From Amoebophrya sp. A120 (Eukaryota > Protista > Dinoflagellata), in contig CAJINV010000004.1 of NCBI GenBank assembly GCA_905178155.1, forward strand, positions 690,629-754,628: 64,000 bases of DNA, in the 5' to 3' direction. A program made the position numbers and the translations under genes. The notes beneath the pieces were generated by a model that saw only the letters and a list, made by a program, of their open reading frames with translations, did no database searches and had not been told where the DNA came from. Below, in pieces: positions 3,675 through 64,000 of this stretch. Numbering within the stretch: position 1 is the first letter of the stretch; the number at the start of each line of letters is the position of its first letter.

Positions 3675-6307
3675 TCATAGTTTTGGCGTGAAGAACGCTT
3701 TGAATTCGTCCCAATCGACTTTCCCGTCGCCGTTTTTGTCTAGTCGGGCGATCATTTGTCGCACTTGTGACGCGTCGGGGCTGATATTTCCGAGCCCAAA
3801 CTCCGCGCCGCGGGTGAGGAGTTGCCCAATTTCGTCGATAGATAGTGACCCGCTGTGGTCCACGTCGATTTTCTGGAAGGCCTTCCAGAGCATCGCGTCC
3901 AGGTTGTTGTCAAAGAAGTTGAGGCAGCCTGCGACGAATTCTGTGTACTCCACGTAGCCGGAGTTATCGACGTCCAGGGACTCCGCGGCCCGTTTGCACA
4001 CGGCGGGGTCCACCCCCAGTTCCTGCAGCGCGCCGGCCAGTTCGTCCATGGAAAGCGTGCCGTTGTTGTCCACGTCGTATTTGCGGAAAATCGCGTTCAG
4101 CTTGGGGAGTTTGTTGGCGGAAAGCTGGGACGCGACCTGCATGCGGACCACCTTTTCGAGGTCGGACCGCTCGTGGTACTTCATAAGCTCGTCCATCGTG
4201 TTCTCGGACAAATGCACGTCCTTCATGCCTGGCGCGTCCCGGAACCACTGGAATTGCAGGCACTCGCTGCAGGTGGGTCGCTTGTTTTCGTCCACCGTAA
4301 GCATGGACGAGAGAAGCTGGCGGACCTGTTGTATATGTATAATAGGGGGTTGGAGTTCTTGTTGATACGAAAAAAAACTACGTACTTGTACTTGGTGTGT
4401 GTTTTTAGACAAGTTCTTGTAGATTCTTGACAAGGGCGGGGTCTACTAGCGAAGATCTTCCCAAATAGAAAGTGTAAGACTCAGAAACAATTATCGGCAT
4501 AAAAAAAGAAAATAAAGCAGATCACAAGTAGAACAAGTAGAAATACCGGCTGACTGGCGTGTTCTACTCTTTTCCAGTTTGGTGGCACGGTCAAGACTGC
4601 GAGCCAGTCCTTTTTCTTGCACGTTTTTGCGATGAAGGGCAACTTTCCAGAGAGAAGCTGGTACAATACCACTCCCAAGGACCACACGTCGCACTTCGGG
4701 CCGAAACTCTGGTTCCATACCTCTGGCGCCATGGTAACCGGGGTTCCCGCGATATTTTTTGATTTGCCAGTGACCTGTGATGTGGTTTTTGTAGATGCAG
4801 CGTTTTTGTATGACCACGACACATCTCATCTTAATAAGCTAAAACTGCTTTTATTTCACAAACGCCATTTTTCCTGATACTCAAAAATTTGCGGAAAGCA
4901 CTTACAAGTTTTTGTATCATCAAAGTATAATCCTTTTTTTCGCAAGACGAGATTGCGTGTCACAGTTAGTACCTTGTCAAACATTTCCGCTAGCCCAAGA
5001 TCAATGACGACCGCGTGTGGCTGTGTTGCTGAGTTCCCGTCGTCCAAAAGCATGATGTTTTCCGCCTTCAGGTCCTTGTGCATGATGCCCCGCGCGTGCA
5101 CGTATGAGATCGCGTTTAAGACCTGCGTATACACCACACTTATCCACTGCTCGTTGAGTCTGTACCCCGCCTTGTAGTTCGACTCGATGACGTCCAGCAA
5201 CTCGCCGCCCTTGGCGGTCTCCATCACGATGTAGATGTTGTTGTAGTCCTCGAAGTACTCAAAGAGGCGGATAATGTGCGGGTGGTCGAGAGACTTCAAA
5301 GTGTCAATCTCCAGCTGCAGCTCCTCCGGGGGCATGGCCGACTTCGCCTTGTTGACGACTTTGAGCACCTATGAACTGCAAATATGTCTGGGTCCTCTGG
5401 TAGATTGCGAGATCTGTCATGCTAGTCTGGCATGACTGTGAGCTCTGTATTGCGTGGCCGCGAAGAGCTCCTCTTGCCCATCATGCAGAAACGCAGGCTG
5501 TCATGCGGAGTACGCAACTCAGAACCACGGAAAAACTTATCATGCTGGGCAGCGCATTACAGTGCTTCCACTCTTCCCTTCCTTGCATCACAAGTTTCCA
5601 GGCCCAGACATTTTTGCAGTGCATAGCACCCGCTCCTGGTGGGAGGAAAGATCCTCCACGAGGTAGACGAGGCCGAAGGACCCCTCGCCCAGTTTTTTCA
5701 GCGTTTTGTAGAAGTCTTCCGGCTTCCCGGTTTTGTTCTTGTCAATGAAGAAATCTCGGCGAATCCCCGCCTTGATGTATTTGTCCCGCACGCGGCGCAG
5801 GATGGCCGCGTACAGGCAGAGGAACTCGGTGAATTCCAGGAATCCGTTTTTGTTCGTGTCGAACTTCTTCATCAACGCATCCAGGAGCCGGTCGTCGTTC
5901 AACGGGGGCAACCCAATCTCGCTGTTCAGCGCCTCGATGCATTTTCGTAGTTCCTCCTGGTTCAGCTGCCCGGGCTTGCCCACGTTGTACTTCTTGTACC
6001 AAACCTTCCCGGCCTTGGTGGTCTCGTCGTTGGTGGATAAGACCTTCTGGATCAGCTTCAGCTGCTCCTTGCTTGGTGCGTACTGCGCTTGGTTCCCCCC
6101 GCCCTCGGACTTCCGGGCGCCGATCTTGAAAGAAGTGGCCCCGCCACCCGCCCCACCCGCGTGCACGTCCCAGCACTGCTGGATGGTCATGTACTTTTTT
6201 CCGCTCGCCTTGTGCAGGTAAGAAACCTGCCCGGGTCGCGACGAAGAGGGGACCACGACAAAACCCGGAGGGAGCTTCGCAATGTCCGGATGGTTAGGGT
6301 CCGCCAT
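3675..6307 (-). CDS. Calcium-dependent protein kinase (CDPK) with extra N-terminal EF-hands and a WW/MBD-like N-terminus, about 650 aa, 4 exons
   Basis: Exons 6307-5630, 5368-4973, 4774-4547 and 4325-3675 join in frame through GT-AG introns. Kinase motifs: GEGSFG, VLK, HPHIIRL, HKDLKAEN, DLG, GTPVTMAPE, DVWSLG. Four C-terminal EF-hands (DVDNNGTLSMDE, DVDNSGYVEYTE, DVDHSGSLSIDE, DKNGDGKVDWDE) and an N-terminal DTNKNGFLEFTE. Confidence 0.93.
4326..4546 (-). other. Canonical GT-AG intron (CDPK intron 3)
   Basis: CCG|GTATTT...ACAACAG|GTC joins HASQP to VRQLL in frame. Confidence 0.85.
4775..4972 (-). other. Canonical GT-AG intron (CDPK intron 2)
   Basis: AAG|GTACTA...TCACAG|GTC joins MFDK to VTGKSKNIAGTP in frame. 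Confidence 0.85.
5370..5625. mobile_element. TIR introner, family A (256 bp), in CDPK
   Basis: TIRs TATGAACTGCAAATATGTCTGGGTCC / GGCCCAGACATTTTTGCAGTGCATA; TSD gcacc at 5365-5369 and 5626-5630. Intron 5369-5629 is GT-AG using TSD bases and restores QERVLKVV. Confidence 0.92.
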
Positions 6308-7842: not shown

Positions 7843-10800
7843 TCAATATGTTAAATATTGCGAAGAGCCTCCTCCTGCTTCTGTTTGAAAATCAGCGTCG
7901 TCTTGTAGTCCTGTTTGCAGCCCAACAACAACGTCCGCAAAGTCACTCTCGGAGAGCTGCTCATCATCGTCGCCATACACTTCTTCTTCACTCTCCGACG
8001 TCGATGCCCCTTCCGGCTTCTTGGATTTGGCTTTCTGGTTCTCCTGCGTGGCCTTTTTACTGCTTACACCGTGGCGCTTTTTTTGTTTCTTCTGTTCCCG
8101 CTCGCTCGGTAACGTTTTTGAGTTTTTCTTGTTCGCCCCCGAGACTACACTTGATTTAGAAGGTTTTTTCGGTGGAGTCGGATTGCTCGAGTCAACAACC
8201 TCCACGTCTTGGTCATCAACTCCAACGTCTTCTTGCAGAGAAGTTGACCTAGAGCTTCTTTTTTTTGTGCGCTCTTTGTCTTTGCCCGGCAGCGCACTAG
8301 TTGTACTTGTCTTCGGCGCTACAGTAGTGTCTTCTTTATTTTCACCGGTGGAACCAAAGGAAAAATTTGCTGCAAACGCGGCATTTTTGTCGGACGACGA
8401 CCTAGCTTCTTGCTGTCCTCGCGCACCCTGTATGTTTGTTCCTGGTCTTATCGTCCTCTCGTCAGCTCCTGCGCCTCTGCTCCTTGCACTCCTCCCGGGG
8501 AGGTGGACGACCCCCGACGGGTCTCCCTCGGACGACGACCGCGCGACAGCGATGAGGTAGGTCGCCAGCGCAGCCCCGGTACAGAGGCAGAACACCAAGG
8601 CGACAATTAAGAACGTCGTACATTTGCAGCAAGCCGCTTCGGCCTCCGGGGTGTCGGGCCAGGGGAGCGGTGCGATGTCCCGGAAGGCCGAGAGACTTGG
8701 TGGTGGATTGTATCGCGTCTCGGGGACTTGTTCGTGGAAAGCGTGTCCGCCAAGATCTTCAGGATCCAGGGTCGTGGTGGTAGTAGTCGTTGATGTGGTT
8801 GTACTAGTCGTCGTCGTCGTATCCCGAGAAAAAAGTGTTACAGTTACACGTTTGCGTTTGTCGCATTTTTCAGGTTCATCTTTGGCGATACAAATTTTCT
8901 TTGCAGGAGCATGACAGACACAGAGAAAATTAGGATTTGAGTTCAGAGATCATAAGCGAGGCCACGCATCGACAAACTAGGCTCGGGAGGAGCATATCCG
9001 ACATCATGACAGGAGTGCTCTGTCTCGCTCCGCCTACAACGCAGTGTGTAAAAAGTACTGTAGCGCTTTTTTCTTTGCATATGTCGTCGTGCACTGTTCT
9101 TCCTGTTGGTACGGGTTCCAGTGGTCATCGGCAGTTTTGTATCCAACCAAAAGAGATTGTAGGTGCAACTTTGATGTGATGCGCAACATGCGAATTGATT
9201 GCGTCCTCTCCTGTCATGCTGGTCCTCATGCATTGCAGGGCCCACAACTAAGCGCGTGTCGGTGTCCACGTACTATCTGCGCAACCACGTGACAGGTTTT
9301 TATTGCTGTCTTCAACATGCCAGACAGATCTCGAATGTTGTTCTGCAAAGAAGGGCTCACGACCTACAACGTTTTTTTCTTGGATATTTTGAAAAGTTGA
9401 AACAGATCGACGTGGCCAGGCAAATTTTCCCCGACTTCTTCTTCGTCCGCTTCCAACAGTTGAAGCCGCTCATCCGAGGAGAAGTCGGAGAAGCTTCCGG
9501 AAGGCACGAAGGGCAAAACGTTTCCGACGTCGATTTCTTCCGGCGGGGGCGGGGTGTACTGATCCATGCCGGCGAAGGTGAATTGAAATGTGTGCGCAGC
9601 TTTTACGGCTATCAAATGCAAAAATGTCTGGGTCTGGAAGAAGACCCTTGTTTGTCATGCATTCTTTGGATTATGCAAATGGTCTGTAATGCACGCAAAA
9701 GCATTACAGGTTTTGCGCAGGCCTTCTGATGCCTATCCTGCATGAGAAATTCCCAATTTGCGTAGCACGAAATGGGCAGCTTTTGGCGATCATGCAACAC
9801 AAATTTTTGCCCATTCCAGAATCCGCATCACAAGTTCCAACCTTCCAGACCCAGACATATTTGCAATCCATAACGGCCCGTAGGGTTGCCGTGTAATCCA
9901 GCAACGGATCGCGCCCGTTTTGGATGTTGACCGCAATGTCCGTCTCTTGGGGTGCCCCATTGTCAGTATCTTCCGAAAAGTAGACCACCTTGACTGTGTA
10001 CACGCCAGCCTGGGGCTGGGGGGTGTCGTCCCGGGCCCACCGAATGTTTTCCACGGGACTGAGGCTACAACTGGAACGAACATTCATGTCCACGTCAAGC
10101 TTGCCCCCGAAATCGCCTTCCATATGCATTGCAAATATGTCTGAATCTGGATGAGTGCGGAAGCTTGTGGTCATTCTGATTTCGGATCATGCCCCGCGAG
10201 GGCCGCTGGAACAATACAGGGACAGGGTACATCACAGGTTTTAATTATAAATATATATTTTCATATAAGGCGGGCTAAGTAGTAGCCCGCCTTATGGTTA
10301 AGTTAACCATAAGGCGGGCCTTATGTGATATGTACTCGCAAAGCGAGTTAAAAAAATATAAATGAATCGCATAGCGGCTTAACGTTAACCAGGTTAACGT
10401 TAAGCCGCTTTGCGATTCATAATATCCCGCATGACCAGCAGGGCCACCGTTTTCGCAGTGCCAAAAGTGGGCATCTTTGCTACCTGCGCAAAACGAGTTT
10501 TTTTGTTTTCATCTGCGGGACGCATCACATCAAATTGCATCCTTCCAGAAGACCCACCAGACAGGCATAGTACTTGCAATGCATATTCCTTGTTGGCCCA
10601 ATACACTTCCTCTTCACTTGGCGTGATGACATGGAGATCGATGTCATTGCAGTTGCTCCAGGAAAGTGTAACCCGGATGGCATTGTTATCGACTTGCCCG
10701 CCCGCATCTTGTATCCAGTGCAGAAGTATCGTACTGATTGCAATCATGCACTCCAAGTTTAGGTTCTAAATCAGCATATCATAACAAATTCTTCTATTCG

Positions 10801-13800
10801 TATTCGATTCCACCTGCTTCTGAAAAGCCAAAAACTTCTTGGGTTGTTGTAATTTCTATCAATGCAATACTTCTGCAATGCATATCTTCCACCAGCTGCA
10901 ACACGGGGTCAATGGGCACTACTTCGTCGCGGAAGGGCTTGAAGCCGGGCACGTACCGCTCGCTCTGCTGGGCTTGTATCATTTGTAAAAACGTCCCCAC
11001 CCCATAGCTGTCATGCAAATCTGCATGCTCAAATGCTTTCTCATGCGGAGCCCCATGACAGGCATTCTCTAGGCGATTTTTGGATTTTGTAGCACTCCAA
11101 TCAGCATAATAGGGTAGATCTGTGATGCTGCTGAACAAGCTGAACCGGATTACACTACGAGTCCAAACTTGTCATGCGCAACACCCAAAGCTGACAGATT
11201 TGTCTAGCAGATTCGCCATCTTGACTATGGGGTGGGGAGATTTTTCCTCACAATAGCTTGCGCGGCGTAGTCGTAGTATTCCTGCGCGTACAGGTACGCG
11301 CGCAAATCCACGGAACGGTCACTCTTGCACCGCGCCTCTTTGTTCTCGTAGGCGGGACAGGCGAAGACGGGCGGAAACTCCGCCGCCAGAGCATCTCGCC
11401 GGGCTGCCACCTCGGCCTTGAGAAACGGGAGGCACCGGAGCTTGGACTCGAAGGAGTCCTTCAGAACGAGGGCCGCGTCCACGCAGACGACCGCGTAGTG
11501 CTTGAGTTCCCGGTATGCAATACAAATTTCGCGTACATGCACAAGATGCATCACAAATTTCACCAATTTGGAGTGTGCTGACACTTGTCATGCTAAACTA
11601 GAATCGGAGTCAAGTTTTGTCATGCAGGGGCACCAGCATTTGTACTACGTCTACGTGTACGGGAAATTTACTGTGGATACCCGGAAGGCTTCTTCCTCGG
11701 CGGCATACGGGCCGGTAGAAAAGATTTTCGTGCACGCGGAGAACCGCTGCCGTCCGGTAAAAGGGTCAAAGAACCGGACCCAGGTCGTCACGTTCGTCGC
11801 AGCCTCCCGCTCGACTTCGACCCGCTTCCGCGTCTCTGCTCGCGCGTACCGCGAGATCGTGTCTGCCATGTCGTCTTCCCAAGAAGTAGTTGTAGCAGAA
11901 CCTCCCGTTGTTCCGTCACCACCACCCTGGTTCTTGTAGTCAAGCAGAACGGGATAGCTCGAGCCGTGGTTGCTTGACAACGTGGTGAAGTCGTTCCACC
12001 GCGTGATCGAGGCGTCTGGGGAAATATCGAACAAAAAAGCATTAGCGTTAGCGTTTTCAAATTTTTTCAAACAAGCGAAATTTTTTTCGATTTTGCATGT
12101 TAAGTTAGCAAGTTCACGCTCAGACGAACATCTGTCAGCTAAGTGTGTATCCTTCTCCTCCCGTGCAACAGGAAGCCGGCGCCCCTTCGTATCCTCCAGC
12201 ATTTTGTTGCAGATCCTCTCCGCCGTTGGTCCGTACTTCAGTGCCCAAGCGTTGATGGTGTTATCCACCCGCCATCGGGCTGCCACCATCGTCGCCGGGC
12301 TTTTGCCTGATTTGACCAGGTTCGGGGCAGATTGTAATGCGGGTTTGCATTTCTTTTGGGTGTCTACTGGCGTTTCGTGGCCGAGCCATCAAAAATCTAC
12401 AGATTTGATGGCCAGCTGATGCAAATTTGAGTGGTCAACAGAAAAAACGCTAATGGTGAAATTTTTTTTCCAGCTATAGGTCGCGTCAAAGTCTGTCATT
12501 AGCGTTTTTTACAGGCACCCAAAAAAACGCTAATGCCAAAAATTTTTTTTTAGCGTTAGGTCGTGCCAAACTCCGCCATTAGCGTTTTTTTCCGAACCGC
12601 ACAAAAGCCGCACTTTTTTTGGGCGCCCGGAATAAACGCTAATGCCAGACTTTGGCACGAGCTAATGCTGCAAAAAAAAATTTAGCATTAGCGTTTTTTC
12701 GGGTACCAGGAAAAAACGCTAATGCCAAACTTTGGCACGACCTGTAGCTGGAAAAAAAAGTTTGGTGTTAGCGTTTTTTTTGTGGACCATTCAAATTCGC
12801 CTCTGCTCGGGGGGTCAAAATGACCTCCGAGGACAGAAACGCTAATGCCAGACTTTGGGAAGCTTGATCATCTTGCTCGGGCTCAAGAGCCGCGAGCCAA
12901 AAACGGGTCTCCAGGCACTCCAGGAGCGACGGCTTGTCAGCCCGCCGCATGGTCAGGAGGTCGCGTAGCCGGGAGTCCCTGGAGCCCCAGACATGCGCGC
13001 GGCCAAGCTGTCGCCCAGATCTTTGGCGGTATCATCTCCGATCCGCTCCGCGGCCGAAGAGACTGCTTCCACTGCTTCCAGTTAGCGCGAATCTGTCTGA
13101 ACGGAACACAGCTACCTCACTAGCTAGAATGAAAAAAAATTTGGCTTTCGCCAGCAAATGTCAAAACGCTAACGCTAATGCTTTTTTGTTAGATAGGAAA
13201 CGACGTAGGCCGACAGGGTGATGCTCCACCCGACCGGGAACAGGGCTTGCAAGTCCGTCTCCCAGTCTACGTCGTCAAACCGCAAAGAGTTCGCGTCCGC
13301 GTCCGTGACTAGGAGAACCATAGCGTGGCAAAAGTCCCGGTCCTCGAGGCAGGGCTGCGCCACGGTATCACAGGCAAAACTGTTTTTAAAGAACGGCTTT
13401 ATTCACGCATTTTTGCAGTCATGCATGGCAATGCAAATATATCGTGCATGCTATGCAATACAAATAAAAGTATTTTGGGCACCTTTTCTCTTTATGCATC
13501 AGCATTGATTCATTACTGCATGGCAAATTACGATCTTTGTCTTTCCTTTGATACGCGGTGGTCGGAAAGCCGTCGGGAAAGGACGGTCCCCCGGTCCCGG
13601 CCGCAATCGTGAGCCCGAGAAACGCGGCGGGGGGCAGCGTGTACCACAAATCTACGGACTCAAAGTCGTCTCGCGCGCCCAGCCAGTCGAGCCCCGCCTG
13701 TTTGTTCTCCTCCGTGGCAACCACGAAGTGCACCGAGAACACGTCCCCCCAACTTTCCCTTTCCACGCCGGTGTAGAGAAACAAAGAAAACCGGTCGTGT

Positions 13801-16040
13801 TGGGTGAGCGAGCTGATCGCTTTCTGCACCGCGGTTTTCACCGCGGGCCATTTGCCGCTTTCTAACATCGATCCGCTGCAGTCGATAGCGAAGACCACGT
13901 TCTTGGTGACCCGGTGTTCCAGGCCCTTTTCGTACCACGGTGCTTGTCGCGCGTCGTAGTTTTCCAGCGACGATGTGGCTTTTGGGGCTGGGAGAGGACG
14001 GCGCTCCTGGAGGTCGTGGCTCGAAGTAGCGGAGGTGCTTATTTGCGGCAAAGTTGCATTCGAAACTGCACTTGCTGCGCTAGAAATACCACTAGTGTTC
14101 ATCGCGGGTGCTGATGCATCAGCTAGTAACGAGCTTGGTGGAGGAGGAGGACCACTCGCGGCTGCTGCAAATAAAGCCGCTGCTGGGCGGTTCCTGGAGG
14201 TCTGAACTTCGGTGAAAGACGACGCCACAGTGTGCTGCTCTTCTTCCGCCTCCTCCAGATTCATGTCCACATTCGGCCACTCAACCACTCTCCCAGTGGT
14301 AGCGAACCCGAAGTTGGCGTAAGCGACGTAGGTTGTTGGTCCAGTGTACACTTCTTGTTCGGAGGTCTCATCCCCACCATCTTGCAGCTCATGATCTGGT
14401 GGTCCGAAGTGCTTTACGAAGATTTTTCCGACCTGCGCGGCGACGCAGTCGTCAAAGTTTTTTTCGTCTTGCAAATCGTCCTGCACGCTGCTCACTCCCG
14501 GAAAAATAACCATGGGATCGCGAGTCGTGATCAAGCCGTCCGATGTGATCCGCGCCCCCGTGCTGCTGTAGCGGGGTGATGTCGATTCGTCCCCCTGATC
14601 GTCCACCTGCCAGCGGGCGGGTAGGACGGCAAAGTAGCTTTCTTCCAGCCCGGACCGGTCAAAAAACCCGTCCCCGTCAGACGCCGCGGCGAGGTGGAAA
14701 TTGCCGAGAACAGATACGCCGGATTTTTGCGTTTGTCCTGCAAGAGCAAGATCAGCACTGTCACCAGTGTGGTCACTGCGGAGATCAGGAGTGTTGTCCC
14801 AGTCCCAACCTCCGTAGTTTCCATAATTGTCCCAGTCACCCGTGAGCGGAACGCAAGCAGTTCTTGGACTAGAAGTGCCGACGCTAGAAGCTGCACCAGT
14901 TGCAGCTCCATCGGCATTCGCGTCGCTACATACGCCGAATTTCTCAGCCATGAATCCACTCGGAGAAGTTGTTCGCAGCAGCTCTGCCTTCTGCGCCAGC
15001 GAGGCGGAGGAGTTGGCGTCTCTTTGCACTTTACGACACCCCGTAGCTCTTTCGCTGGTAGTTGACAAGAGCACGGTGTCTTCAATTTCTTTTTTTAATT
15101 GCAAGACCTTTTCCTCCACACGCGTGAGCTGGTCCTGGGTGAAGGTCCGGTGCTGGTCGGTGGTCAGGTTTCTTCTCGCGTAGTACGTGTGGGGAAGGGT
15201 CGTGGTCGTGGTGGAAGTAGTACTGGAATTAGTAGTAGAGTCAGATGAATTGCTTCTACTAGAAGACGAGGAAGCTTGCTGCATAGAGGATTCAGCAGGA
15301 GAAGCAGGTCCTGTTCCTGCTATTAGCTGCATTGACTCGTTTATTGTTGCGTTTGAGGATGTCAATTGCACCACAGTCGAGTAGTTGGTAGCACTAGCAG
15401 TTAAAGCGTTCTTGGTCGCTGTCGTGTCAACATCCTCTTCGGGTTCTCGTACTAGCAGCTGCTGCTGCGAAAGAATCTCCGAATTATGCGCTTGAAGAAG
15501 CCGATCCTGCTGTTCTCGTCTCTGCTGGTGGTCATCTTCAGCAGGGCTGCCCACGACGAGGTGTTTTCCATTTCGATTTCGTTTTCTGCCCTGTTCCTGC
15601 AACATGACTTTATTCGCCCTCTCCCGAAGAAATGAGGACGAAGATGATGATGACGTAGGAGAATCATCTTCCGCAACGTCAAGAAACCCAGGGGCGGTGT
15701 CCACATCTTTTCCGACCACCCCACTCGTGCTCCTGCTTTTCGTCGTGGAGGTGCTCCTTTTAGCAGCTGCTGATCTGGCTTTATTACGTTCATCTTGTGC
15801 AAGAACTGGTGCGCCGGCGGTTTTGTCCTTCTTCAAGCGAAGAGGGTGATGCTGCTGCGCCGCGTTCTTGTATACAGTGTAGCCCGCACAGGTGGGAGGC
15901 GCCACTGAGTGGAATACATAAGAAATGAAAATCAAACAAGAAGCTGGTCGTGTAAATGAAAGATGTCTGCAGGAGCTAGTAGCTCGATATGAACAACCCG
16001 GCTGGGGTCGCCTCGGGCTGTAAAGGAAAAACAAAAACAT
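7843..16040 (-). CDS. Multi-exon type-I membrane protein: vWA domain, DUF2135/YfaP-like domain, Thr-rich stalk, TM helix, charged tail
   Basis: vWA MIDAS motif VVFAIDCSGSM and a later VLLVTD motif. DUF2135-like IRVTLSWSNCNDIDLHVITP..GGKLDVDMN..VENIRW. Poly-Thr at about 8770-8820 and TM helix FLIVALVFCLCTGAALATYLIAV. Exons are joined by removing about 9 elements; the two 3'-most junctions are less certain. Confidence 0.72.
8908..9239 (-). other. Probable non-canonical intron or degenerate introner
   Basis: 7-bp direct repeat ttgcagg at 8901 and 9233, with GCATGACAG/CTGTCATGC inverted motifs. Removal gives in-frame VVGPAKKICIA; boundaries are uncertain. Confidence 0.45.
9273..9409. mobile_element. 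Probable degenerate introner
   Basis: Flanks acgta/acgtg and a short imperfect inverted repeat CTATCTG..CAAC / GTTG..CAGATCG. Removal joins PGHV to DTDTR in frame. Confidence 0.5.
9610..9872. mobile_element. TIR introner, family A (263 bp)
   Basis: TATCAAATGCAAAAATGTCTGGGTCTGGAAG / CTTCCAGACCCAGACATATTTGCAATCCATA; TSD acggc; restores TLRAV-KAAHTF. No GT-AG register exists. Confidence 0.92.
10123..10585. mobile_element. Family A-like introner (463 bp) with an internal hairpin cluster
   Basis: Ends TATGCATTGCAA / TTGCAATGCATA; flanks ttcca/ttcct; restores YWANKE-GDFGGKLDVD. Confidence 0.85.
10362..10420. repeat. Near-perfect palindrome with 29-bp arms and a 1-nt loop
   Basis: ATGAATCGCATAGCGGCTTAACGTTAACC-A-GGTTAACGTTAAGCCGCTTTGCGATTCAT, one mismatch. 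Confidence 0.95.
10712..10884. mobile_element. TIR introner (173 bp)
   Basis: TATCCAGTGCAGAAGTAT / ATACTTCTGCAATGCATA; flanks tcttg/tcttc; restores LVED-AGGQVDNN. Confidence 0.87.
10977..11255. mobile_element. TIR introner, family B (279 bp)
   Basis: TATCATTTGTAAAAACGTCCCCACCCCATAG / CTATGGGGTGGGGAGATTTTTCCTCACAATA; TSD gcttg; restores AAQA-QQSER. Confidence 0.9.
11514..11679. mobile_element. TIR introner (166 bp)
   Basis: TATGCAATACAAATTTCGCGTACA / TGTACGGGAAATTTACTGTGGATA; TSD cccgg; restores EAFR-ELKHY. Confidence 0.9.
12025..13195. mobile_element. Large foldback-like introner (1171 bp)
   Basis: About 33-bp TIR TATCGAACAAAAAAGCATTAGCGTTAGCGTTTT and its reverse complement; perfect TSD ggaaa; internal alternating AAAACGCTAATG / CATTAGCGTTTT array; restores SAYVVS-PDASITRW. 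Confidence 0.92.
13366..13553. mobile_element. TIR introner (188 bp) inside the vWA domain
   Basis: TATCACAGGCAAAAC / GTCTTTCCTTTGATA; flanks cacgg/cgcgg; restores FPTT(V/A)AQPC. Confidence 0.82.
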
Positions 16041-26365: not shown

Positions 26366-27722
26366 TTACGACTCTATGTTGAATAGCTAACTTTCGTATT
26401 TTTACTTACTCACGGTACTTACTTAGAGATTTTCGACCTCCTGTAGCGTTTTTCACGAAATTCCGAATAATGTTGACAACACGAATTGAACCATGAGAAG
26501 AGAGTTGCGAAACATGATCGGATCATAATTTTTTCGGCCTAGAAAATGAGAACAATTTTCATTTTCTTCCGGTGCTTACCAAGCAACCTCGCAGGATTTG
26601 GTCTGAAGATCGATGGATACATTCCCATTATTTTTGATCGGGGTGATGAATCTGGATCCAGATTTTCATCTTCGTTATTTGTGATCAACAAACCAGGATC
26701 GTGCTGTGCCTTTGAGAATCAATCTTCTTTCCTGCTCCTACATGCGCGGTCTCCTGGGCACATGACGGGGAAGAAGAGCAAGTACGAAGATTTCGCAATG
26801 AATGATCTTGATCCACTCTATTTTCGACTTGCCGAAGTGCATCAATCCAACGACGATCTTGCGCTTGCCACTAAATTTTCACAGCGGACAAGAGGAGCAC
26901 GTAGCACTTACTCAAACCGACAATGGCATAGCATGGCTCGTCGTGGTTGATCTTATTATTATTCATCATTCGAGAGATGAACAACGCGGCTTGACACGCA
27001 GCATAATTGCACCTGCTACTCGTTTTGGCAACTCGCTTAAGCAAGACTCCGAGGCCGCTTTCTCGGGACATCTGAAGACCAAGAGTTATTTTTGTTGCGC
27101 CAGGAGAGAGATAAATTGTACGTATTGAAAGCGGAATTGTAACTCCGGTTTCTACCCCGATTTAGTCTCAGCAGCACAGTAATGATGCGGTGCTGGTCGT
27201 GCAGATATTTATTACGTAATAAATAGTAATTGTAATACAGGTATAATAGGCGGCATCAAACACAAACTCAGAGCAACAATTTCTTCCACGAGGAGGACAA
27301 GAGGTATCTATACGGTTTTTTCTTTTTCAGTACAAGTACAACAAGGGACAGCGCGATTTTAGAAAGGAATTAGCGATACTAGGGATAGTGGTGTGCTGGT
27401 CGTCTTTTTCACGCATTGAATTGCAAGAACATCTTTCTGAATACATCTGTGGCTGTAGGATAAAATGCAAACAAATGGGAATGAAACGCGCGTGAGCGTT
27501 AGAATTCCCTCGGCGTACCCCGAAGCGACAGGTCACCCTCATATTCAAAGTAAACCATGGATAGCAACAAGCTAGCAGAGGCAGTTGTAGCCATAAGCAT
27601 AACGTAGGTATAAACTTTCAGTAGAACAAGTAACGCTAACGCCATCACCCTCTTCAACATAGTTAGTGTCTACTGGACGAAGTAGACGATGAAGAACATA
27701 AACACTAACACACATAGGCAAC

Positions 27723-50800: not shown

Positions 50801-53800
50801 GAGAAGCACGCAGTACAAAGAAAGTTTCATCTTGCTAGTACAACTGGCCGTCCCAGTTGTTCCTGCCAAAAGAGAAGCAGGACGACCTTTATCATAATTC
50901 TTTTTTCTGGGAGCAGCACCAGTTCTTGCAGCTGCTGCAAAGACTTTTTCCTCGTAGCTGAGCTGAAACAGCCAGTCGCCCACTGCATCGACGCAATCCA
51001 GATTCACCAGCACGTTTTCGTCCCCGCAGGCGTAATCCAGGTAAAACGGCAGGACTTTCTGCTCCAAAAAGGTTTTGCAGGAGGTGGACGTGGAGTGAAC
51101 AGGTTCTTGTAAGGAAAAATGCGGCTTTTTTGTTTTGTCACGGTGATCTTGGTGTAGTTGTTCCGCCTCGGACGGCGCATCTTTCTTATTCTTCTCGTTC
51201 TGCAGTAGACTGCCACGCCCATGCCCAGATTTGGAGCCGAAAACTTCATCCTCAAGGTTCTCGTCTTGTAAAAGGAGTTCGTGTAGTTCATCGTCATCCT
51301 CTTGTTGCAGTAGGAGCCTCTGGCGATGACTATTTTTACCACTTAATCCGCGCCGCTCCTTCTGCTGCTGTTTGCTCAAAAACTTCGTGTCAATGTCATC
51401 ACCAGAATTCATTTTCCGGCCATCCCCGAACCCAGCAGCTGCGAAGAACAATCTTTTTGCCAAGAAGCTTCGCAGCCCGAGAAACGCGATGCGTCGCCAC
51501 AACGGCACCGGAGAAGATTCCGCGAAGGCTCGCAAAAGGAGGCACATCTTCTGCAGCAGGAGCATGGCCGGAGAGGACGAGAGATGATCACTTGTACAAT
51601 TTTTACCAGAAGAACAACCTTGTCCAGCAGCTTCATCATCCTGCAGCTGCCCTTTCTCTCCCCGCAGCAGATTCTCCATTACCTGCACGCCCTCGAGCAG
51701 TTCCGCAGCCAGTTCCTCGGTGAAAAGGATCCAGCACTGCCGCGCCCGGTCTGCCTGTTTCTTCGTCCGCGTCTTCATGTCAAGCCTCAAAGCTGCTTGT
51801 CCTGCGTGGTTCTGGTCGTGATTGCCACGACGACGACGCTTCGCGACTTATGAACTGCAAAAGCATCGTCGTGCTTACACTGAGTATACATCGCATGACA
51901 AATTTCCTCAGCATGAAAAAGAAAATTTGTAATGCGGATTGAACCTGAGAAAGAAATTTGTAATGCATGATTACAATACGAGTACGATACTTTTGCACAG
52001 GATACGACTTTCTCGCCCGCAACTTTTCCGCCCGCGAGTTCGGCTGGATCTTGACCTTCTTCATTGATGTCCGAGATGGACAAATCGTCAGCGTCCTCCT
52101 CGAGAAAATGTACCTCCTGATGGTCAGCTGCCTCGTCAGTAGACGTTCTGTGATGTTGTCTACTACTGCTTCCACCACCAGTTGAAGTTGAGCAGCTCTT
52201 TTGCACGCAGGCCTCGACGAACCGCTGCAGGCTTTCGTCGGAGACAACTACAGGGTTAATATCGGGAGTTTTGCTGATGTTACGATTTGATTCCGATTCG
52301 CGTTGGCGGTCAGCAAGTTGCACTTCTAGCGCCGGTCGTGCGCGAGCGCGGCGGTCGAGAGGCGCAGACGAGCATGACAGGGTCAGGCTTGAAATCGATA
52401 AAGTTGAAATGATCTATTGCAGCGCATGATGCAGCATAAAACCGACATCAGCATTTAGACAAATTTAGCAGCACCAGAACTGACTTTTTCGTGCCATTAT
52501 TTGGGGAAAGAAGGGCTCCTTTTTCGTGCCGTTTTATCAGCTCTATCTCCAACGCGAAGAACCTGAACCACATACAGGCTTAAAATATGTAGACTTTATT
52601 GCAAGGTAGTTCCACTTCATCGATTTCGATTCTGACACAACTCTCATACAGCAATGTTCGTCTTGAGTGCGGCAAGGTCAGCACCTTTTTCGTCGGGAGG
52701 AAAATTCGCGATGGTCCCTGTCGCTGCTGCTGTGGTAGTAGTGTTCTTCTCGCCGGGAAAGTGCGTATAAGAGTGCACAACCAGTCCCCGTCGTTCCCCT
52801 CATTCGTCATGCAAAATGCTATATCCAGCCTCTTATTTCATTTTATGGAAGTGTTTCAATGAAAGATTATTGTAGAATCCGAAACAGCACAATACCCCGG
52901 CTACCGCTCGTGCTAGATACTGCTACATACAACAGTTGTCCGCGGGTAGAAGATTTGTCATGCGAACAAACATACAGTGCTGGTGGTGGTGACCATACGG
53001 TGTGTTTCTTGCTATAACAGCTACATTTCCCAATGCGCGGAACGACAACGAGGGGGACGAGTTGTTCACTCTCATAGTGACCTTCGGCGAAACAGTATCC
53101 AGGAAAAAATCTGTTTAAGTGTAACTCTGTAGGAAGATGAACAGCATCGCAGATTCGTTTTGCATTTTACAATCTCAATCATGCGAAACACGTACGAAAG
53201 TTGCCTATGACGCACATCCAGCACGACAAGCGTATACAGTTTTGCATTCCCTGCGTCACAGACTTACACTTACAGTTTTTTTCTTGCATAAACAGCTCTT
53301 CGCGTGGCACACGTCCAGGAAGAAGACGGCAAAAGCCTCAAGCAGATCGTTGATTTTGCTGTTTCGGGTCGAAGTGGTTTCCTGCCTTTTTAGCTCCCGC
53401 ACAGCCTGATCTTGGAAGATATCCAGCTTCGCACTTTTGTTTTTGATATTTGCTGCGTTTATTTTCTTAGTACTTCCGGCAGCGGCAGCGGAGGCGCCAC
53501 TACGATTAGATTTGTTGTTTTTTTCCTTCCCCGGACCCTTGTTCTCTAGCTGTAGTACTTCGTCAGAGTCATTCTCCTCGTCCTCGTCCTCGTGGGAAGT
53601 GGCCATCAGTTCCACCTTCGCCAGAAACGCCGCGGCTTGCTTTCGTGCCCACGAGCGGCTCAGTGATGTTTTGGTCTTGTTGATTCCGGAGGATAAGAGG
53701 GAGTTGAGCATGACAGTAACAGAAGGTTGTGATGAAGGTGGGCCGGCACGTGGTTCCGGCTTACTTCCTGCTCCTGCTTTTTTATCCTCTGCAAAAGTAA

Positions 53801-54099
53801 TATCGTACGTAGCCGAATTCACCTGTAGGCAGAGCTCTTTACAACTCGATTTTTTAGCATGTCGAATTGCAGAAGTTGAATATATAATATGCATCGTCGT
53901 CATGCAGTTGCAGTTGCAAATTCAAAAAATAAAGATTTTGATTTCCATGCAGCAATTCCTGCTAGCCCAGTACGAATCGATAGCTTTGCACTGCGTACGC
54001 TGTGTTGGCGCTTGGAGCTACAATGGAGGCCTCGGCCTCCATGGTCTTGTCCACCATAGAAGAAGATGAAGAAGACGACGTCGCGGCTTGCTTCTTCAT
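41851..54099 (-). CDS. SCC3: Divergent, expanded cohesin subunit Scc3/STAG (stromalin)-like protein with many exons
   Basis: STAG-like motifs SSPVPLWRRIAFLGL and DYACGDENVLVNLDCVDAVGDWL..LLQALLDTKNSEVRRRALEVF, comparable to the stromalin RD..IR..CI..IG.W...LHD...EVRLKCL pattern. Most exons join in frame after element removal; junctions at about 52390-53030 are unresolved. Confidence 0.55.
42748..43005. mobile_element. TIR introner, family A (258 bp)
   Basis: TATCAACTGCAAAAATGTC / GACATTTTTGCAGTTGATA; TSD ccttt; GT-AG register 42744-43006 is possible; restores FVKG-KKSKG. Confidence 0.93.
43777..44305. mobile_element. Degenerate introner or intron with only one recognisable TIR
   Basis: Right end CAGACACTTTTGCATGTTGCATA; flanks ttgca/ttgcc; removal gives in-frame FDVA-TAGLSL. 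Confidence 0.5.
44645..44838. mobile_element. TIR introner flanked by a TA dinucleotide
   Basis: TA-AAGTGTTAACGTTATCTAACGG / CCGTTGATTAACGTTAACACTT-TA; removing the element plus one TA gives in-frame PSEI-PLHIP. Confidence 0.8.
45410..45615. mobile_element. TIR introner (206 bp)
   Basis: TATGGAAAGAAAAAAGTTTGTCAC at the left end and GTGACGAAC(T)nGTTTGATA at the right end; flanks gcaac/tcaac; restores FCRL-RDQAF. Confidence 0.87.
48807..49071. mobile_element. TIR introner, family A (265 bp)
   Basis: TATGCATTGCAAAAGTGTCTGGGTCTGGAAGATT / AATCTTCCAGACCCAGACATTTTTGCAGTTGATA; flanks gttgg/gctgg; interior alignable with 42748-43005; restores LVFQ-PGGDH. Confidence 0.92.
49160..49354. mobile_element. 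TIR introner (195 bp)
   Basis: TATGCATTGCAA..ATCGTA / TACGAT..TTGCAATGCATA; TSD cggag; restores LALR-IVVNL. Confidence 0.9.
49564..49747 (-). other. Introner-derived intron, predicted GC-AG
   Basis: Left end TATGCATTGCAAAAG with a degenerate right end; GGA|GCG...CATAG|AGC joins TNMG to SNKPKK in frame. Confidence 0.55.
49820..50037. mobile_element. TIR introner, family C (218 bp)
   Basis: TATCAAGCAAAATAAACCTGT..TGTAACTCT / AGAGTTACA..ACAGGGGTTTTTTCTTGCGTA; flanks agaaa/tgaaa; restores VQRF-LDFIHDD. Confidence 0.85.
50282..50449. mobile_element. TIR introner, family B (168 bp)
   Basis: TATCCTGTCAAAAAACGTCCCC / GGGGACGTTTTTACACAGGATA; flanks agggg/agagg; in-frame join to SSSSNEVDP. Confidence 0.87.
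50552..50750. mobile_element. TIR introner (199 bp)
   Basis: CCTGTGCAAAAGTTGTATCGG..GTAGCT / AGCTAC..CCAATACAACTTTTGCCAGG; flanks tcagg/tcaag; restores EVRRRAL-EVFLQK. Confidence 0.8.
51849..52004. mobile_element. TIR introner (156 bp)
   Basis: TATGAACTGCAAAAGCATCGT / ACGATACTTTTGCACAGGATA; TSD cgact; restores GEKV-AKRRRR. Confidence 0.9.
53096..53290. mobile_element. TIR introner, family C (195 bp)
   Basis: TATCCAGGAAAAAATCTGTTTAAGTGTAA / TTACACTTACAGTTTTTTTCTTGCATA; TSD aacag; restores AKSC-FAEGHY. Confidence 0.9.
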
Positions 54100-62000: not shown

Positions 62001-64000
62001 TGGCTTCCCGATTCCTGGTTCAGGTTTTTGAAATGCATGTGGTCGGCAGCCGCTAGCCGTAACCACGCAGAACACTGCGCCTGTTGGGGACGTAATTCAC
62101 CTCCTTCTTCCGGCGTGGTGCGCCGCCCCGCCGTCGTTGCACGCACATGTTGCCGCAGGTGTACCGCAAGCGGATCGGACTCGTCCTTCCTACTGGCCGC
62201 CTCGCACACAGGCTGGAATTCAACTCCCTCTGCTGCTTCCAGAGCAGTTCTCGTTTTCCGAATTTCTGGTGGTGCCTGCGTACCCTCGGGAAGGTTGATC
62301 TCCCTCTGCCGTTCGAGCTCGACCAGTTGGTGCTGCAGTTGAGACCACTTAAGCACATGCTTGTAGATTTGGTGGCCAGAGTCAACCAGGATTCCGAAGA
62401 TTCTAGGCTTTTTACGCTCTCGCCCGATTCTCGCCAGTTCCTGTTGCTGCTGATCTGCAGTTTCACACGGAAACCAGACTCCGTCGCTCGCTATTGAGAG
62501 GAAAAATCCCCCCTCCCCATATTCTTGACGAAAAGCTACATATGCTTCCGAAAATTTCTTGCGCTGCTGACCATTTGCGGCGACGGAGCGGAGTGGGTGT
62601 GCCAGAAGACAAGCGCACGCCCAGAGGCTTCTGCTGGCCCATTGCCACTATACAAATGCCTTCGCATGCTGCTGGGGCCCCGGGGGCAGCCGTTTGCAGC
62701 AATGCTATTGAACAACTAGACCCAAGCGCCCCTAGTGCCTCGGCTGAGGGTCTGGTGGCAGTAGTGCCTTACTGCAAAACAAAGCGCATCTATGTACGCA
62801 GATCCAGCATCAGAAACTTCGTTTGGATATGGGGAGGGAAGATTTTTCCTTTCGATACTCGTCACAGGTTGCTTTTTGACGGCATCCCCGCCGAGTTGCT
62901 TGGGCGTTTTGCCTTCTTCCACGCCGTTGTACACGCCCGACATGAAGTCATCAATCGACTTCTTCCCCGCCCCGCCGTCGTCCCCAGGTCCCCCGGAAGA
63001 TCCGGAACTGATTGACTTCACGGCGAATTTTGCGCCGCACTTGGCATCCGGGTTCAGCTTCGGATCGCCGTCGCACTGTTTGGCCATATTGGTCTTGAAC
63101 TCGTTGTAAGCCTGGAGCCCCCACCCCTTTTTCAACGTTATTCCGTCTTCCTCCGATAAGTTGGGGTTTGCGGCATGGACGGCCTGGCCACCCGCTTTCC
63201 ACTGTTCCCAGTTGAGACCTCTATGAATTGCGCACATTATGTCTAGGTCTGGTGCGGGATTTGAATGTGTGAAGATGCTGATCTCGAAACGGAAGCAGCA
63301 GAGATCTATAAATTTCTTCTATAGGTGATCTGCTGCATTAATGCACCAACAGGATTCGGAGTGGCGCGCAGCTTCTCTGTCGTGCTAGGAGTCCTTTCGT
63401 ATTTCTAATACCACGTACTAAATACTTACGAACGAATAATTCGTCCACCCCACACACCAGGTTCTTTCACTCCAGGAAAATGACTTGTCACGCGTGTAAC
63501 AAGTACTGTATCGAGGAAAGAATAACGACTCATTATATAAAAACATCGATCAATAATCGGCACCAAAAGCAGGCAAATTGTAGCGATCAACAGCTGCAAC
63601 ATGATTTTTGCACCAGACCGAGACAATTTTTTTTCGAGTCGATAGGCTTCGATGTGATGCAGCTTCCCGCTGTTCTCGTCAAGAACAAGCTTGAAGAAGC
63701 ATTGCCACTTTTCCGGCTGAACGAGATCCATTTCCGTGGGTGTGACCGAACTCAAAAACCGGTTGTCTTGGTATGCATTGCAAATTTGTCTGGGTCTGGA
63801 AACTTGTAAAAGTTCTAGATTGTCTTTGTCGTGATTGTGAAAAATGAACGCTCTGTAAAAATGCACAGTAAACAAGTATGAGAAATATTTACGCAGCTAC
63901 GGCGTGTTCGCTTTCGCATGACAAGACACGCTTCTTCATGACAAGCTCTACAGCGACAGCCATGTCAGATCAGCATGACAAAAACAAACTTAGCAATCTT
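59099..64000 (-). CDS. Pectin acetylesterase/Notum-family domain protein with a long N-terminal extension; 5' end outside the window; probable pseudoenzyme
   Basis: CLDGTPAAYY, FIDFEGDGVC, YVYINVKPCDGAAFSG, IVFHGHGFGG, CLFPQ and TPLLMVQSLFD match the family motif order. Upstream exons join in frame after removing 62492-62857 and 63222-63644. Confidence 0.85.
62492..62857. mobile_element. TIR introner (366 bp)
   Basis: TATTGAGAGGAAAAATCCCCCCTCCCCATAT / ATATGGGGAGGGAAGATTTTTCCTTTCGATA; flanks ctcgc/ctcgt; restores QPVTS-DGVWF. Confidence 0.9.
63222..63644. mobile_element. Family A-like introner (423 bp) with a decayed TSD
   Basis: TATGAA..TGTCTAGGTCTGGTGC / GCACCAGACCGAGACA..CGATA; removing the element plus 5 nt joins HHIE to GLNWEQW. 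Confidence 0.75.
63772..64000. mobile_element. Family A introner truncated by the window edge
   Basis: TATGCATTGCAAATTTGTCTGGGTCTGGAA at 63772. The window ends in GCAATCTT, the sequence that precedes the right TIR in copy 48807-49071. Confidence 0.85.

What the first reader, a model, noticed from the sequence alone, without database searches (positions are those of the whole stretch)
5370..64000. System of TA-ended TIR elements with 5-bp TSDs acting as frame-restoring non-canonical introns
Seen: more than 20 insertions in coding exons share the layout [5-bp repeat]-TA(T)..TIR..(A)TA-[5-bp repeat], although their TIR and interior sequences fall into many different families. Removing the element plus one repeat restores the frame and rebuilds split motifs (kinase ERVLK, DUF2135 NKEGDFGGKLD, STAG EVRRRALEV). 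Sliding the junction through the repeat gives GT-AG only for 5370 and 42748. The others can only be, for example, CC-AG (9610), GT-GG (11514), GT-CC (49160) or GT-CT (53096), and the G-less repeat TTTCC at 12025 allows neither site. Inference: the ends are defined by the TIR stem and direct repeat rather than by splice dinucleotides, alongside ordinary GT-AG introns in the same genes. Known: introners, and inverted-repeat non-canonical introns in Amoebophrya, are already described, but to my knowledge their excision mechanism and mobilising enzyme are unresolved.
Basis: partly seen in the sequence, partly recalled or inferred. Interest (0 to 1): 0.92.

Follow-up and report, generated by a model that had tools for sequence, protein, structure and literature searches.

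The report
Transposon introns with one fixed cut
Short mobile-DNA inserts that interrupt genes of a parasitic marine microbe are missing from its messenger RNA although they lack the usual intron signals; this oddity is already known, but here every informative insert is cut at the same place, one base before and four bases after it, likely by an altered form of the normal splicing machine.

Summary
Observation confirmed. The window is Amoebophrya sp. A120 (two proteins 100% identical). It holds 29 complete inserts, 21 with TA...TA ends and 5-bp repeats at least 4/5 identical. An RNA-type run lacks 10 of 10 covered inserts plus exactly 5 nt each; a transcript-based protein model removes 15 more. 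These are the introner elements of Farhat et al. 2021; a 2025 supplement already notes '5-bp TSD, TA/TA termini' for one family. The class is known.

What I add: the cut register, left unknown in that paper, appears fixed. Eleven protein junctions and two RNA junctions agree only on intron = N-TA...TA-NNNN (chance about 0.009). A second assembly gave 303 such elements with strictly 5-bp duplications, both orientations and a shared internal motif. Likely excision: relaxed U2 spliceosome (0.55) or stem-guided cutting (0.3). No transposase found. The scan noted similar hairpin introns in two other dinoflagellate genomes (untested here).

The parts
5370..5625 (-). TA-ended TIR element, main family, 256 nt, perfect 5-bp repeat; in a kinase/EF-hand gene; ends CT-TG in the fixed register (GT-AG possible in another register)
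   Evidence: (joint skips 261 in X3, depth 0 in X1)
8820..9081 (-). TIR element, 262 nt, repeat 4/5; RNA keeps the downstream copy's fifth base (register at most 4); AT-AC
9140..9386 (-). TIR element, 247 nt, perfect repeat; AT-AA
9610..9872 (-). TIR element, main family, 263 nt, perfect repeat; TT-CG
10123..10585 (-). TIR element, 463 nt, repeat 4/5 (register at least 1); AT-GA; splits NKEGDFGGKLD
10712..10884 (-). TIR element, 173 nt, repeat 4/5 (register at least 1); AT-AG
10977..11255 (-). TIR element, 279 nt, perfect repeat; CT-AG
11514..11679 (-). TIR element, 166 nt, perfect repeat; GT-GG; adjacent RNA pieces skip exactly 171 nt
12025..13195 (-). Long TIR element, 1171 nt, internally palindromic, no long ORF; CT-TC
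13366..13553 (-). TIR element, 188 nt, repeat 4/5; RNA and protein keep the upstream copy's fourth base (register 4 or 5); GT-GT
30120..30371 (-). TIR element, 252 nt, perfect repeat; GT-TT; removal not tested on RNA or protein
30421..30672 (-). TIR element, main family, 252 nt, perfect repeat; GT-GT; removal not tested on RNA or protein
37890..39223 (-). Long GC-rich element, 1334 nt, TTA ends, perfect 5-bp repeat; removal joins two open frames; not tested on RNA or protein
42748..43005 (-). TIR element, main family, 258 nt, perfect repeat; GT-AG in the fixed register
44114..44305 (-). Aged TIR element, 192 nt, repeat 3/5; AT-CG; no terminal helix predicted
44633..44853 (-). Aged TIR element, 221 nt (one end uncertain by 2 nt), repeat 2/5; register 4 or 5; TT-CC
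45410..45615 (-). TIR element, 206 nt, repeat 4/5 (synonymous mismatch); AT-TG
48807..49071 (-). TIR element, main family, 265 nt, repeat 4/5 (synonymous mismatch); CT-AA
49160..49354 (-). TIR element, 195 nt, perfect repeat; GT-CC
49565..49740 (-). Aged TIR element, 176 nt, repeat 2/5; register 2-4; TT-GC; no terminal helix predicted
49820..50037 (-). TIR element, 218 nt, repeat 4/5; register at most 4; AT-TC; no terminal helix predicted
50282..50449 (-). TIR element, 168 nt, repeat 4/5; register at least 3; TT-CC
50552..50750 (-). Aged TIR element, 199 nt, 3' end TC instead of TA, repeat 4/5; register at least 2; splits VRRRALEV
51849..52004 (-). TIR element, 156 nt, perfect repeat; GT-TC
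52373..52648 (-). Decayed element, 276 nt (ends fitted by hand), repeat 1/5; register 2-4; GT-CG
52766..53076 (-). TIR element, 311 nt, repeat 3/5; register at least 1; CT-CA; follows a 14-nt exon
53096..53290 (-). TIR element, 195 nt, perfect repeat; TT-GT
53783..53997 (-). Aged TIR element, 215 nt, repeat 1/5 yet removed as element+5; register 4 or 5; GT-AA; no terminal helix predicted
62492..62857 (-). TIR element, 366 nt, repeat 4/5; GT-GA; removal not tested on RNA or protein
63773..64000 (.). Main-family element cut by the window end; host strand not settled
4326..4546 (-). Ordinary GT-AG intron of the kinase gene
   Evidence: (joint)
4775..4972 (-). Ordinary GT-AG intron of the kinase gene
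   Evidence: (joint)
43778..44009 (-). Ordinary GT-AG intron, 232 nt, in the P0001 gene
3675..6307 (-). Host gene: kinase with EF-hand domains (CDPK-like; label inferred from domains)
7846..16040 (-). Host gene of P0002 (1646 aa; weak VWA, DUF2135-like part), nine elements
41854..54099 (-). Host gene of P0001 (2896 aa; no Pfam family), fifteen elements and one GT-AG intron

Best explanation
These inserts are short non-coding transposons with TA ends and 5-base target duplications that sit in protein-coding exons and are missing from the RNA together with exactly five flanking bases, cut one base before the first TA and four bases after the last TA in every informative case, likely by a relaxed U2-type spliceosome that would read the element's own end sequence instead of GT-AG. 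Step 1 (inferred): a DDE transposase, probably integrase-like, binds a motif shared by many families and inserts the element in either orientation with a 5-nt stagger. Step 2 (shown for 10 elements in RNA contigs, for 15 through a transcript-based protein model): element plus 5 nt leaves the transcript and the frame is restored. Step 3 (supported by 13 constraints): the register is fixed, intron = N-TA(T)...(A)TA-NNNN, so U+2 and A+3 come from the TIR and match the host's own GT-AG donors (GTAT, GTAC). Step 4 (inferred, untested): the spliceosome accepts any +1, -2 and -1 base and sets the 3' cut by distance from the 3' TIR, whose U-run and near-invariant A at -7 could serve as tract and branch site. 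Because both ends carry the same motif, either orientation works, which explains why thousands of exonic insertions are tolerated. My odds: class 0.97, fixed register 0.85, spliceosome 0.55, integrase-like mobiliser 0.6.
For: RNA: X3 contig 11 skips 171 nt at 11514; its two unresolved gaps measure 723 and 165 nt, exactly the genomic spans minus six and two elements with +5 each; the same run skips two GT-AG introns, and DNA run X1 reads through the elements. Register: 11 of 24 junctions mapped on P0001/P0002 are informative and intersect at register 4 only; chance 0.0015, or 0.009 allowing any of six registers; RNA adds 8820 (at most 4) and 13366 (at least 4). The gene models come from BLAT-aligned transcripts, not ab initio prediction (PMC7789003 section 25). 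At register 4, +2 is U in 29 of 29, +3 A in 28, -7 A in 28, -6 U in 28. Repeat-poor elements keep the register. No sign that pairing is selected in RNA. A120 has U2, U4, U5, U6 and 83 of 89 spliceosomal proteins sought. All 9 commonest A120 and all 9 commonest A25 non-canonical end pairs in Table S4 have T at +2. Precedent: Fritillaria transposon-derived non-GT-AG introns are spliceosomal. Transposon side: 69 of 80 main-family pairs have a perfect 5-bp repeat, none of 6-9 bp; 41 sense and 44 antisense; shared motif 623 times against 1.4 in shuffles, in 109 of 121 elements outside the main family.
Against: No spliceosome-like preference at free positions among 149 oriented elements: G+1 49 vs 45 expected, AG 17 vs 11.3 (p 0.09), 51 of 64 possible end pairs used; G.G plus A.C terminal pairs 33 vs 22.3 from window codon usage (p 0.02) but equal to what the data's own margins give (about 19 and 15). 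No clear strand-specific interior signal (best: one hexamer, 42 vs 14). U1 was not found in A120. U+2 is invariant by construction, since TA is also the transposase end; only the choice of register (1 in 6) is informative. Table S4 is not independent: 8 of the 9 A120 pairs also have A at -2, which an aligner favouring GT-AG half-matches would produce, and the published annotation gives GC and GA donors for about 10% of the largest family (fam3: 191 and 212 of 3852), impossible at register 4; I read this as arbitrary placement inside perfect repeats, but real heterogeneity is not excluded. Only two register constraints come straight from RNA, from contigs that drop rare forms; ends of 52373 and one end of 44633 were fitted by hand. 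The TTA-ended 37890 element does not fit the TA rule. No transposase was found.
Confidence: 0.55

Rival explanations
1. Spliceosome-independent removal: the TIRs pair into a stem and an endonuclease-ligase (tRNA-splicing-like or euglenid-like) cuts at fixed offsets, 1 nt outside the stem on the 5' side and 4 nt outside on the 3' side, releasing linear or circular introns.
For: Fixed stagger relative to the TIR; indifference to +1, -2, -1; both orientations equally common; the terminal three pairs have probability above 0.8 in 12 of 27 folded window elements; U1 not found; euglenid non-conventional introns pair +4..+6 with -8..-6 and leave as circles (review PMC11282704 section 6).
Against: G-U 74 vs A-C 64 among TIR mismatches in the sense strand (p 0.44) and no sense-strand gain in duplex energy (p 0.18); positions 4-7 match between ends in 33 of 120 vs 34.2 expected if independent; no terminal helix predicted for 44114, 49565, 49820, 51849, 53783, and the outermost pairs are unpaired in 30120, 50552, 62492. 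Most second-assembly elements are young, so selection may not yet show.
Confidence: 0.3
2. A sequence-specific protein (for example a domesticated transposase domain) recognises the TAT-N7-AAA end motif on DNA or nascent RNA at both ends and positions either machinery; neither snRNA pairing nor a stem sets the ends.
For: TIR positions 1-3 and 11-13 are 97-100% conserved across families while 4-10 vary (the detector required TA and an A-run, so this is partly built in); a related motif recurs inside most elements.
Against: No such protein identified; the motif is fully explained by transposase binding; aged elements that lost the A-run or the terminal base are still removed (52373, 50552).
Confidence: 0.08
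3. The skipped forms are reverse-transcriptase template switches across a hairpin between short direct repeats, and the genes are broken or retain the inserts.
For: Hairpin plus direct repeat is the known setting for such artefacts (recalled; PMC2923612 seen in a search listing only). Raw reads of X8 run from a flank into a related element, so some RNA keeps an element.
Against: One contig lacks all nine inserts of a gene at even depth, X3 depth is 0 in four bins inside unique elements; repeat-poor elements are removed in the same register; only removal restores 1646- and 2896-aa proteins, a kinase, and in the second assembly a SNF2 helicase (145 of 149 homologue alignments span that junction).
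Confidence: 0.04
4. The elements are excised from DNA (like TA-bounded ciliate IESs) before transcription.
For: TA-bounded ends; X3 is only guessed to be RNA.
Against: X1 contigs read through 8820, 9140, 10123, 10712 and 13366 without mismatch and show depth 0 for the 5370 joint; X3 also skips ordinary GT-AG introns. Only the 15 best joints were listed, and contigs drop rare forms.
Confidence: 0.03

Closest known systems
Introner elements / non-canonical introns of Amoebophrya sp. A120 (Farhat et al. 2021, PMC7789003; read: abstract, sections 10, 11, 12, 16, 25, 32, supplement parts 2-3 as text, figures not seen)
   Same: Same organism and proteins; IR starting TAT, seven variable bases, then at least three A; 3-5-nt direct repeats (5 bp in Fig. 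S19 legend); RNA-supported removal; no internal transposase; mixed with GT-AG introns.
   Different: The paper calls splice sites variable relative to the hairpin, border position unknown and no dinucleotide signature; here one register fits all informative junctions, the repeat is strictly 5 bp, and it is dispensable for cutting.
A120 introner families in Gozashti et al. 2025 (PMC12130899; read: passages, section 6, 50 of 58 A120 rows of supplement file 8)
   Same: Mostly 'TIR DNA, unknown superfamily'; family 38 is noted as 'Ginger; 5-bp TSD, TA/TA termini' with integrase-related ORFs.
   Different: Automatic TSD calls there range from 2 to 6 and the TA/TA plus 5-bp note is on 1 of the 50 rows read; here it holds across many families; the register is not addressed in what I read.
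IS3EU/GingerRoot DNA transposons (PMC6839031, PMC10045372; passages)
   Same: TA...TA termini, TIRs, little target sequence preference, integrase-related DDE transposase as candidate mobiliser.
   Different: Usually 6-bp duplications and, in GingerRoot, 100-150-bp TIRs; here 5 bp and about 14-35 bp; no transposase seen.
Ginger2/TDD (PMC2836005; passages)
   Same: TDD-4 and TDD-5 make 5-bp duplications with an integrase-like transposase.
   Different: TGTNR termini and AT-rich targets, not TAT ends and free targets.
Fritillaria borealis non-canonical introns (bioRxiv 2025.08.15.670264 abstract and discussion; review PMC11282704 section 6)
   Same: Transposon-derived TIR/TSD introns without GT-AG, removed by a modified U2 spliceosome.
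   Different: There AG-AC and AG-AT dominate and about half of the ends form isosteric terminal pairs; here +2 is U and the terminal pair is free.
Euglenid non-conventional introns (review PMC11282704 section 6)
   Same: TIR stem, TSD-like repeats, fixed offsets to the stem, unknown enzyme.
   Different: CAG/CTG pairing at +4..+6 with -8..-6 and a pyrimidine-purine junction; here +2..+4 faces -5..-7 with TAT/ATA; circles not tested.

Membership tests
Amoebophrya A120 introner elements | Host is Amoebophrya sp. A120 | tested here: met
   Two window exons match proteins named A120 at 100%
Amoebophrya A120 introner elements | IR begins TAT, seven variable bases, at least three A | tested here: met
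   25 of 29 5' ends and 26 of 29 3' ends read TAT/ATA; A at positions 11-13 in 97-99% of second-assembly ends (partly required by the detector)
Amoebophrya A120 introner elements | 3-5-nt direct repeat at the boundary | tested here: met
   13 of 29 perfect, 10 with 4/5; 69 of 80 perfect at 5 bp in the second assembly
Amoebophrya A120 introner elements | Removed from transcripts at non-GT-AG ends | tested here: met
   10 of 10 covered elements absent from X3 contigs; GT-AG reachable for 2 of 29
Amoebophrya A120 introner elements | Repeated families without transposase | tested here: met
   44 clusters among 308 interiors, largest 167; no Pfam hit for 3 ORFs of the 37890 element; no long TIR-bounded coding element found
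IS3EU/GingerRoot | TA...TA termini | tested here: met
   definition
IS3EU/GingerRoot | 6-bp target duplication | tested here: not met
   0 of 80 at 6 bp, 69 of 80 at 5 bp
IS3EU/GingerRoot | Integrase-related DDE transposase in an autonomous copy | tested here: inconclusive
   None in the window or in 497 kb of loci; the whole genome is not held
Ginger2/TDD | TGTNR termini | tested here: not met
   Ends read TATC/TATG; definition
Ginger2/TDD | 4- or 5-bp target duplication | tested here: met
U2-type spliceosomal intron | GT (or GC) donor and AG acceptor | tested here: not met
   1 of 29 window and 5 of 149 second-assembly elements are GT-AG at register 4
U2-type spliceosomal intron | U at +2, purine at +3 | tested here: met
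   29 of 29 and 28 of 29 at register 4; element-encoded
U2-type spliceosomal intron | Isosteric +1/-1 pair (G.G or A.C) | tested here: not met
   33 of 149, no more than the margins predict
U2-type spliceosomal intron | Lariat intermediate and snRNA dependence | not testable with these tools
   needs lariat sequencing or inhibition
Euglenid non-conventional introns | Conserved CAG/CTG pairing at +4..+6 / -8..-6 | tested here: not met
   positions read T-S-N and S-A-T
Euglenid non-conventional introns | Terminal RNA stem maintained by pairing | tested here: inconclusive
   predicted in many elements, absent in 5 of 27; no G-U excess
Euglenid non-conventional introns | Released as full-length circles | not testable with these tools
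   needs RNase R sequencing

The most novel reading that the evidence does not exclude
Amoebophrya A120 runs a splicing system with no need for G+1, AG or a terminal base pair: one transposon end motif, read from either strand, sets a 5' cut one base outside it and a 3' cut four bases outside it, so that every insertion of a whole IS3EU/Ginger-like lineage is a perfect intron at birth. This would be either the most relaxed spliceosome known or a new cut-and-join chemistry, and a universal 'scarless' insertion tag.
Probability: 0.4. Interest if true: 0.85.

Novelty: already known. Interest (0 to 1): 0.5.

Why it matters
How Amoebophrya removes more than 60% of its introns without GT-AG is an open question, and the published picture (variable, unknown borders) gave nothing to test. 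A single register, N-TA...TA-NNNN, turns it into precise predictions: where lariat or circle junctions must lie, which bases are free, that an A at -7 is the candidate branch site, and that the direct repeat is only the transposition scar. It also explains why the elements spread in exons: a 5-nt target stagger and a 1+4 cut add up to a clean excision in both orientations. A shared internal motif points to one mobilising enzyme lineage that can be sought in the genome. I did not find the fixed register in print (searches; Roy et al. 2023 not held, figures and two supplement files unseen).

Tried and rejected
Whole-genome analysis: no genome held. X8 and X9 raw RNA reads cover only a shared TIR (97 and 2 reads), so they say nothing on these genes; including DNA run X1 filled the 15-row joint table with cross-element joints (367 rows unseen). 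No listed holder is on record as RNA; X3 is a guess, supported by its skipped GT-AG introns. Read-level junctions for the P0001 gene were not obtained, so its register rests on the protein model. TIR pattern in viral contigs: 0 hits. Orientation bias suggested by five window copies: rejected (41 vs 44). Selection towards GT or AG, terminal-pair covariation, G-U excess: none. Upstream +1 purine bias at mismatched repeats (6 of 6 in loci) and C depletion at +1 (17 of 122, p 0.002): probably codon-phase effects, not used. Autonomous element: none among TIR pairs up to 9 kb; contigs behind loci could not be searched. Homologue searches from second-assembly exons gave no spliced model: low-complexity hits only, SNF2 relatives and the contig's own ORF, so its relation to A120 is open; the SNF2 mismatch junction was uninformative. 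Mismatches at 8820, 44114, 45410 and 48807 are synonymous and give no protein constraint. Table S4 as independent proof of the register: rejected because of aligner tie-breaking. 'STAG' label: unconfirmed. Structure and complex prediction were not used; no candidate enzyme existed.

Full report
Identity. No genome is held for the window, but two exons match proteins named Amoebophrya sp. A120 at 100% over their whole length: P0001 (2896 aa) and P0002 (1646 aa). This is the strain in which Farhat et al. 2021 (PMC7789003) described non-canonical introns and introner elements with IRs beginning TAT, seven variable bases and an A-run, and 3-5-nt direct repeats.

Observation. A strict scan found 18 TA-ended TIR pairs, 7 with perfect repeats, against 0-4 and none perfect in five shuffles. 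A relaxed scan and protein mapping bring the count to 29 complete elements and one cut by the window end. A codon model puts all 29 in minus-strand genes (partly trained on these exons). GT-AG can be reached by sliding in 2 of 29. Interiors fall into many families: 11 window elements join 7 clusters shared with a second assembly, 18 are singletons.

Removal from RNA. Run X3 (contigs, guessed to be RNA) skips two GT-AG introns and 261 nt at 5370, where DNA run X1 shows no joint. Its contig 11 matches four stretches without mismatch; it skips 171 nt at 11514, and its two unlisted gaps of 723 and 165 nt equal the genomic spans minus six and two elements with five extra bases each. These six junctions are known by their sum and by P0002, not one by one. 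X1 contigs read through the elements. P0001 removes 15 further elements and one GT-AG intron; the models are built from BLAT-aligned transcripts. Four elements (30120, 30421, 37890, 62492) were tested by frame only.

The register. Let k be the number of bases of the upstream repeat kept in the exon. Perfect repeats hide k. RNA gives k at most 4 for 8820 and at least 4 for 13366. Of 24 junctions on the two proteins, 11 restrict k, and they intersect at k = 4 alone; with independent uniform k this has probability 0.0015, or 0.009 for any common register. The cleanly bounded elements alone (8820, 13366, 49820, 50282) also leave only 4. Seven junctions exclude k = 1, the mirror register; none demands k below 4. 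The intron is thus N-TA(T)...(A)TA-NNNN: U at +2 in 29 of 29, A at +3 in 28, A at -7 and U at -6 in 28, with +1 and -4 to -1 free. Caveats: two direct RNA constraints only; the ends of 52373 and one end of 44633 were fitted; 13366 counts in both the RNA and protein sets.

What the paper says. Its Fig. [quoted passage not shown] All 18 commonest non-canonical end pairs in Table S4 have T at +2, but 8 of the 9 for A120 also have A at -2, so aligner tie-breaking could produce this. The annotation counts in Gozashti et al. 2025 include GC and GA donors (191 and 212 of 3852 in fam3), which k = 4 cannot give; by my rough estimate they fit a mix of k = 4 and k = 1 placements inside perfect repeats (inference).

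The repeat is a scar, not a signal. At 53783 the copies agree at 1 of 5 bases and at 49565 at 2 of 5, both with clear TIR ends, yet element plus five bases is removed in a register that includes 4.

A second assembly. Of 80 main-family pairs 69 have a perfect 5-bp repeat and none a 6-9-bp one. A general detector found 303 distinct elements (242 perfect repeats) against 0-1 in shuffles. Of 279 with enough flank, removal of element plus 5 gave the best coding frame in 188 (52 and 39 for the other two); 149 could be oriented, and the tests below use those. The main family lies 41 times in sense and 44 in antisense. Nearest copies are 74-97% alike. A motif defined on these elements occurs 623 times in interiors against 1.4 in shuffles, in 109 of 121 elements outside the main family and in 17 of 29 window elements; it resembles the TIR itself and probably marks transposase binding (inference). 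One element splits a SNF2 helicase at a place spanned by 145 of 149 homologue alignments. No RNA was tested for these loci, and their relation to A120 is open.

Mechanism of excision. Against a pairing-defined stem: G-U and A-C mismatches are equally common in the sense strand (74 vs 64), duplex energies do not differ by strand, TIR positions 4-7 vary independently at the two ends (33 matches vs 34.2 expected, n = 120), and 5 of 27 folded window elements have no predicted terminal helix. Against an ordinary spliceosome: no excess of G+1 or AG, 51 of 64 end pairs in use, no +1/-1 covariation beyond the margins, and U1 unreported. For a relaxed spliceosome: of six registers, the one used makes the TIR supply U+2 and A+3, as in the host's GTAT and GTAC donors; the 3' TIR supplies a U-run and an A at -7; U2, U4, U5, U6 and most proteins are present; Fritillaria is a precedent. 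I put the spliceosome at 0.55 and a euglenid-like or tRNA-splicing-like cut at 0.3. This step is inferred, not shown.

Mobilisation. TA...TA ends define IS3EU/GingerRoot, which usually make 6-bp duplications; TDD-4/5 make 5-bp duplications but end in TGT. Gozashti et al. describe an A120 family with TIRs and integrase-related ORFs and label it 'Ginger; 5-bp TSD, TA/TA termini'. An integrase-like DDE transposase is the likely mobiliser (0.6); membership in either superfamily fails one defining test, and I found no autonomous copy.

Verdict. The feature is real and already known as a class, in this same strain. The new points are the fixed 1+4 register, the dispensable repeat, the lack of RNA-level stem selection and the shared motif. 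I did not find them in the papers searched, but Roy et al. 2023 is not held, figures were not visible, and 8 of 58 A120 rows and two supplement files of PMC12130899 were not read. Interest 0.5.

Noticed in passing
window 37890-39223: 1334-nt GC-rich, repeat-laden element with TTA ends (the A25-type triplet) and a perfect 5-bp repeat; removal joins two open frames. Read with TA ends the repeat is 7 bp, so it cannot follow the 1+4 rule around TA.
   Followed up: partly
L001-L172 (second assembly): Junctions at register 4 fall in phase 0 in 71 of 122 well-framed cases (p 2e-8), but only 11 of 29 in the window; a symmetric target profile predicts 43%. Unexplained.
   Followed up: partly
main family, window and L001-L172: TIR positions 4-7 come from a small set of variants that pair at random between the two ends of an element, unusual for a MITE family.
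   Followed up: partly
window 9610-9641, run X8: RNA-seq reads of another sample run from a foreign flank into a main-family TIR (71 reads) on both mate strands: the family exists there and is retained in some molecules or in contaminating DNA.
   Followed up: no
window 53077-53095: A 14-nt exon (after removal of the repeats) lies between two adjacent elements and is kept in the protein model.
   Followed up: partly
window 1-2300: GC-rich, repeat-laden stretch with short tandem and inverted repeats and a thrice-repeated 20-30-nt motif; may be the end of another large element.
   Followed up: no
window 12025-13195: The long element holds a 193-nt internal palindrome (12414-12807) and has relatives elsewhere in the DNA run; a family of about 1.18 kb with TIRs is listed for A120.
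   Followed up: partly
window 16937-26365: A 3142-codon open frame without any element, next to genes with 9 and 15; insertions are strongly clustered by gene.
   Followed up: no
window 26030-26060 and 26740-26770; 43800-44000: Isolated copies of the internal motif outside recognised elements, one inside the GT-AG intron region; possibly decayed elements.
   Followed up: no
P0003: A second A120 protein (2618 aa, 38% identity over 43% of the query) is a paralogue of P0002; its intron positions could show empty sites.
   Followed up: no
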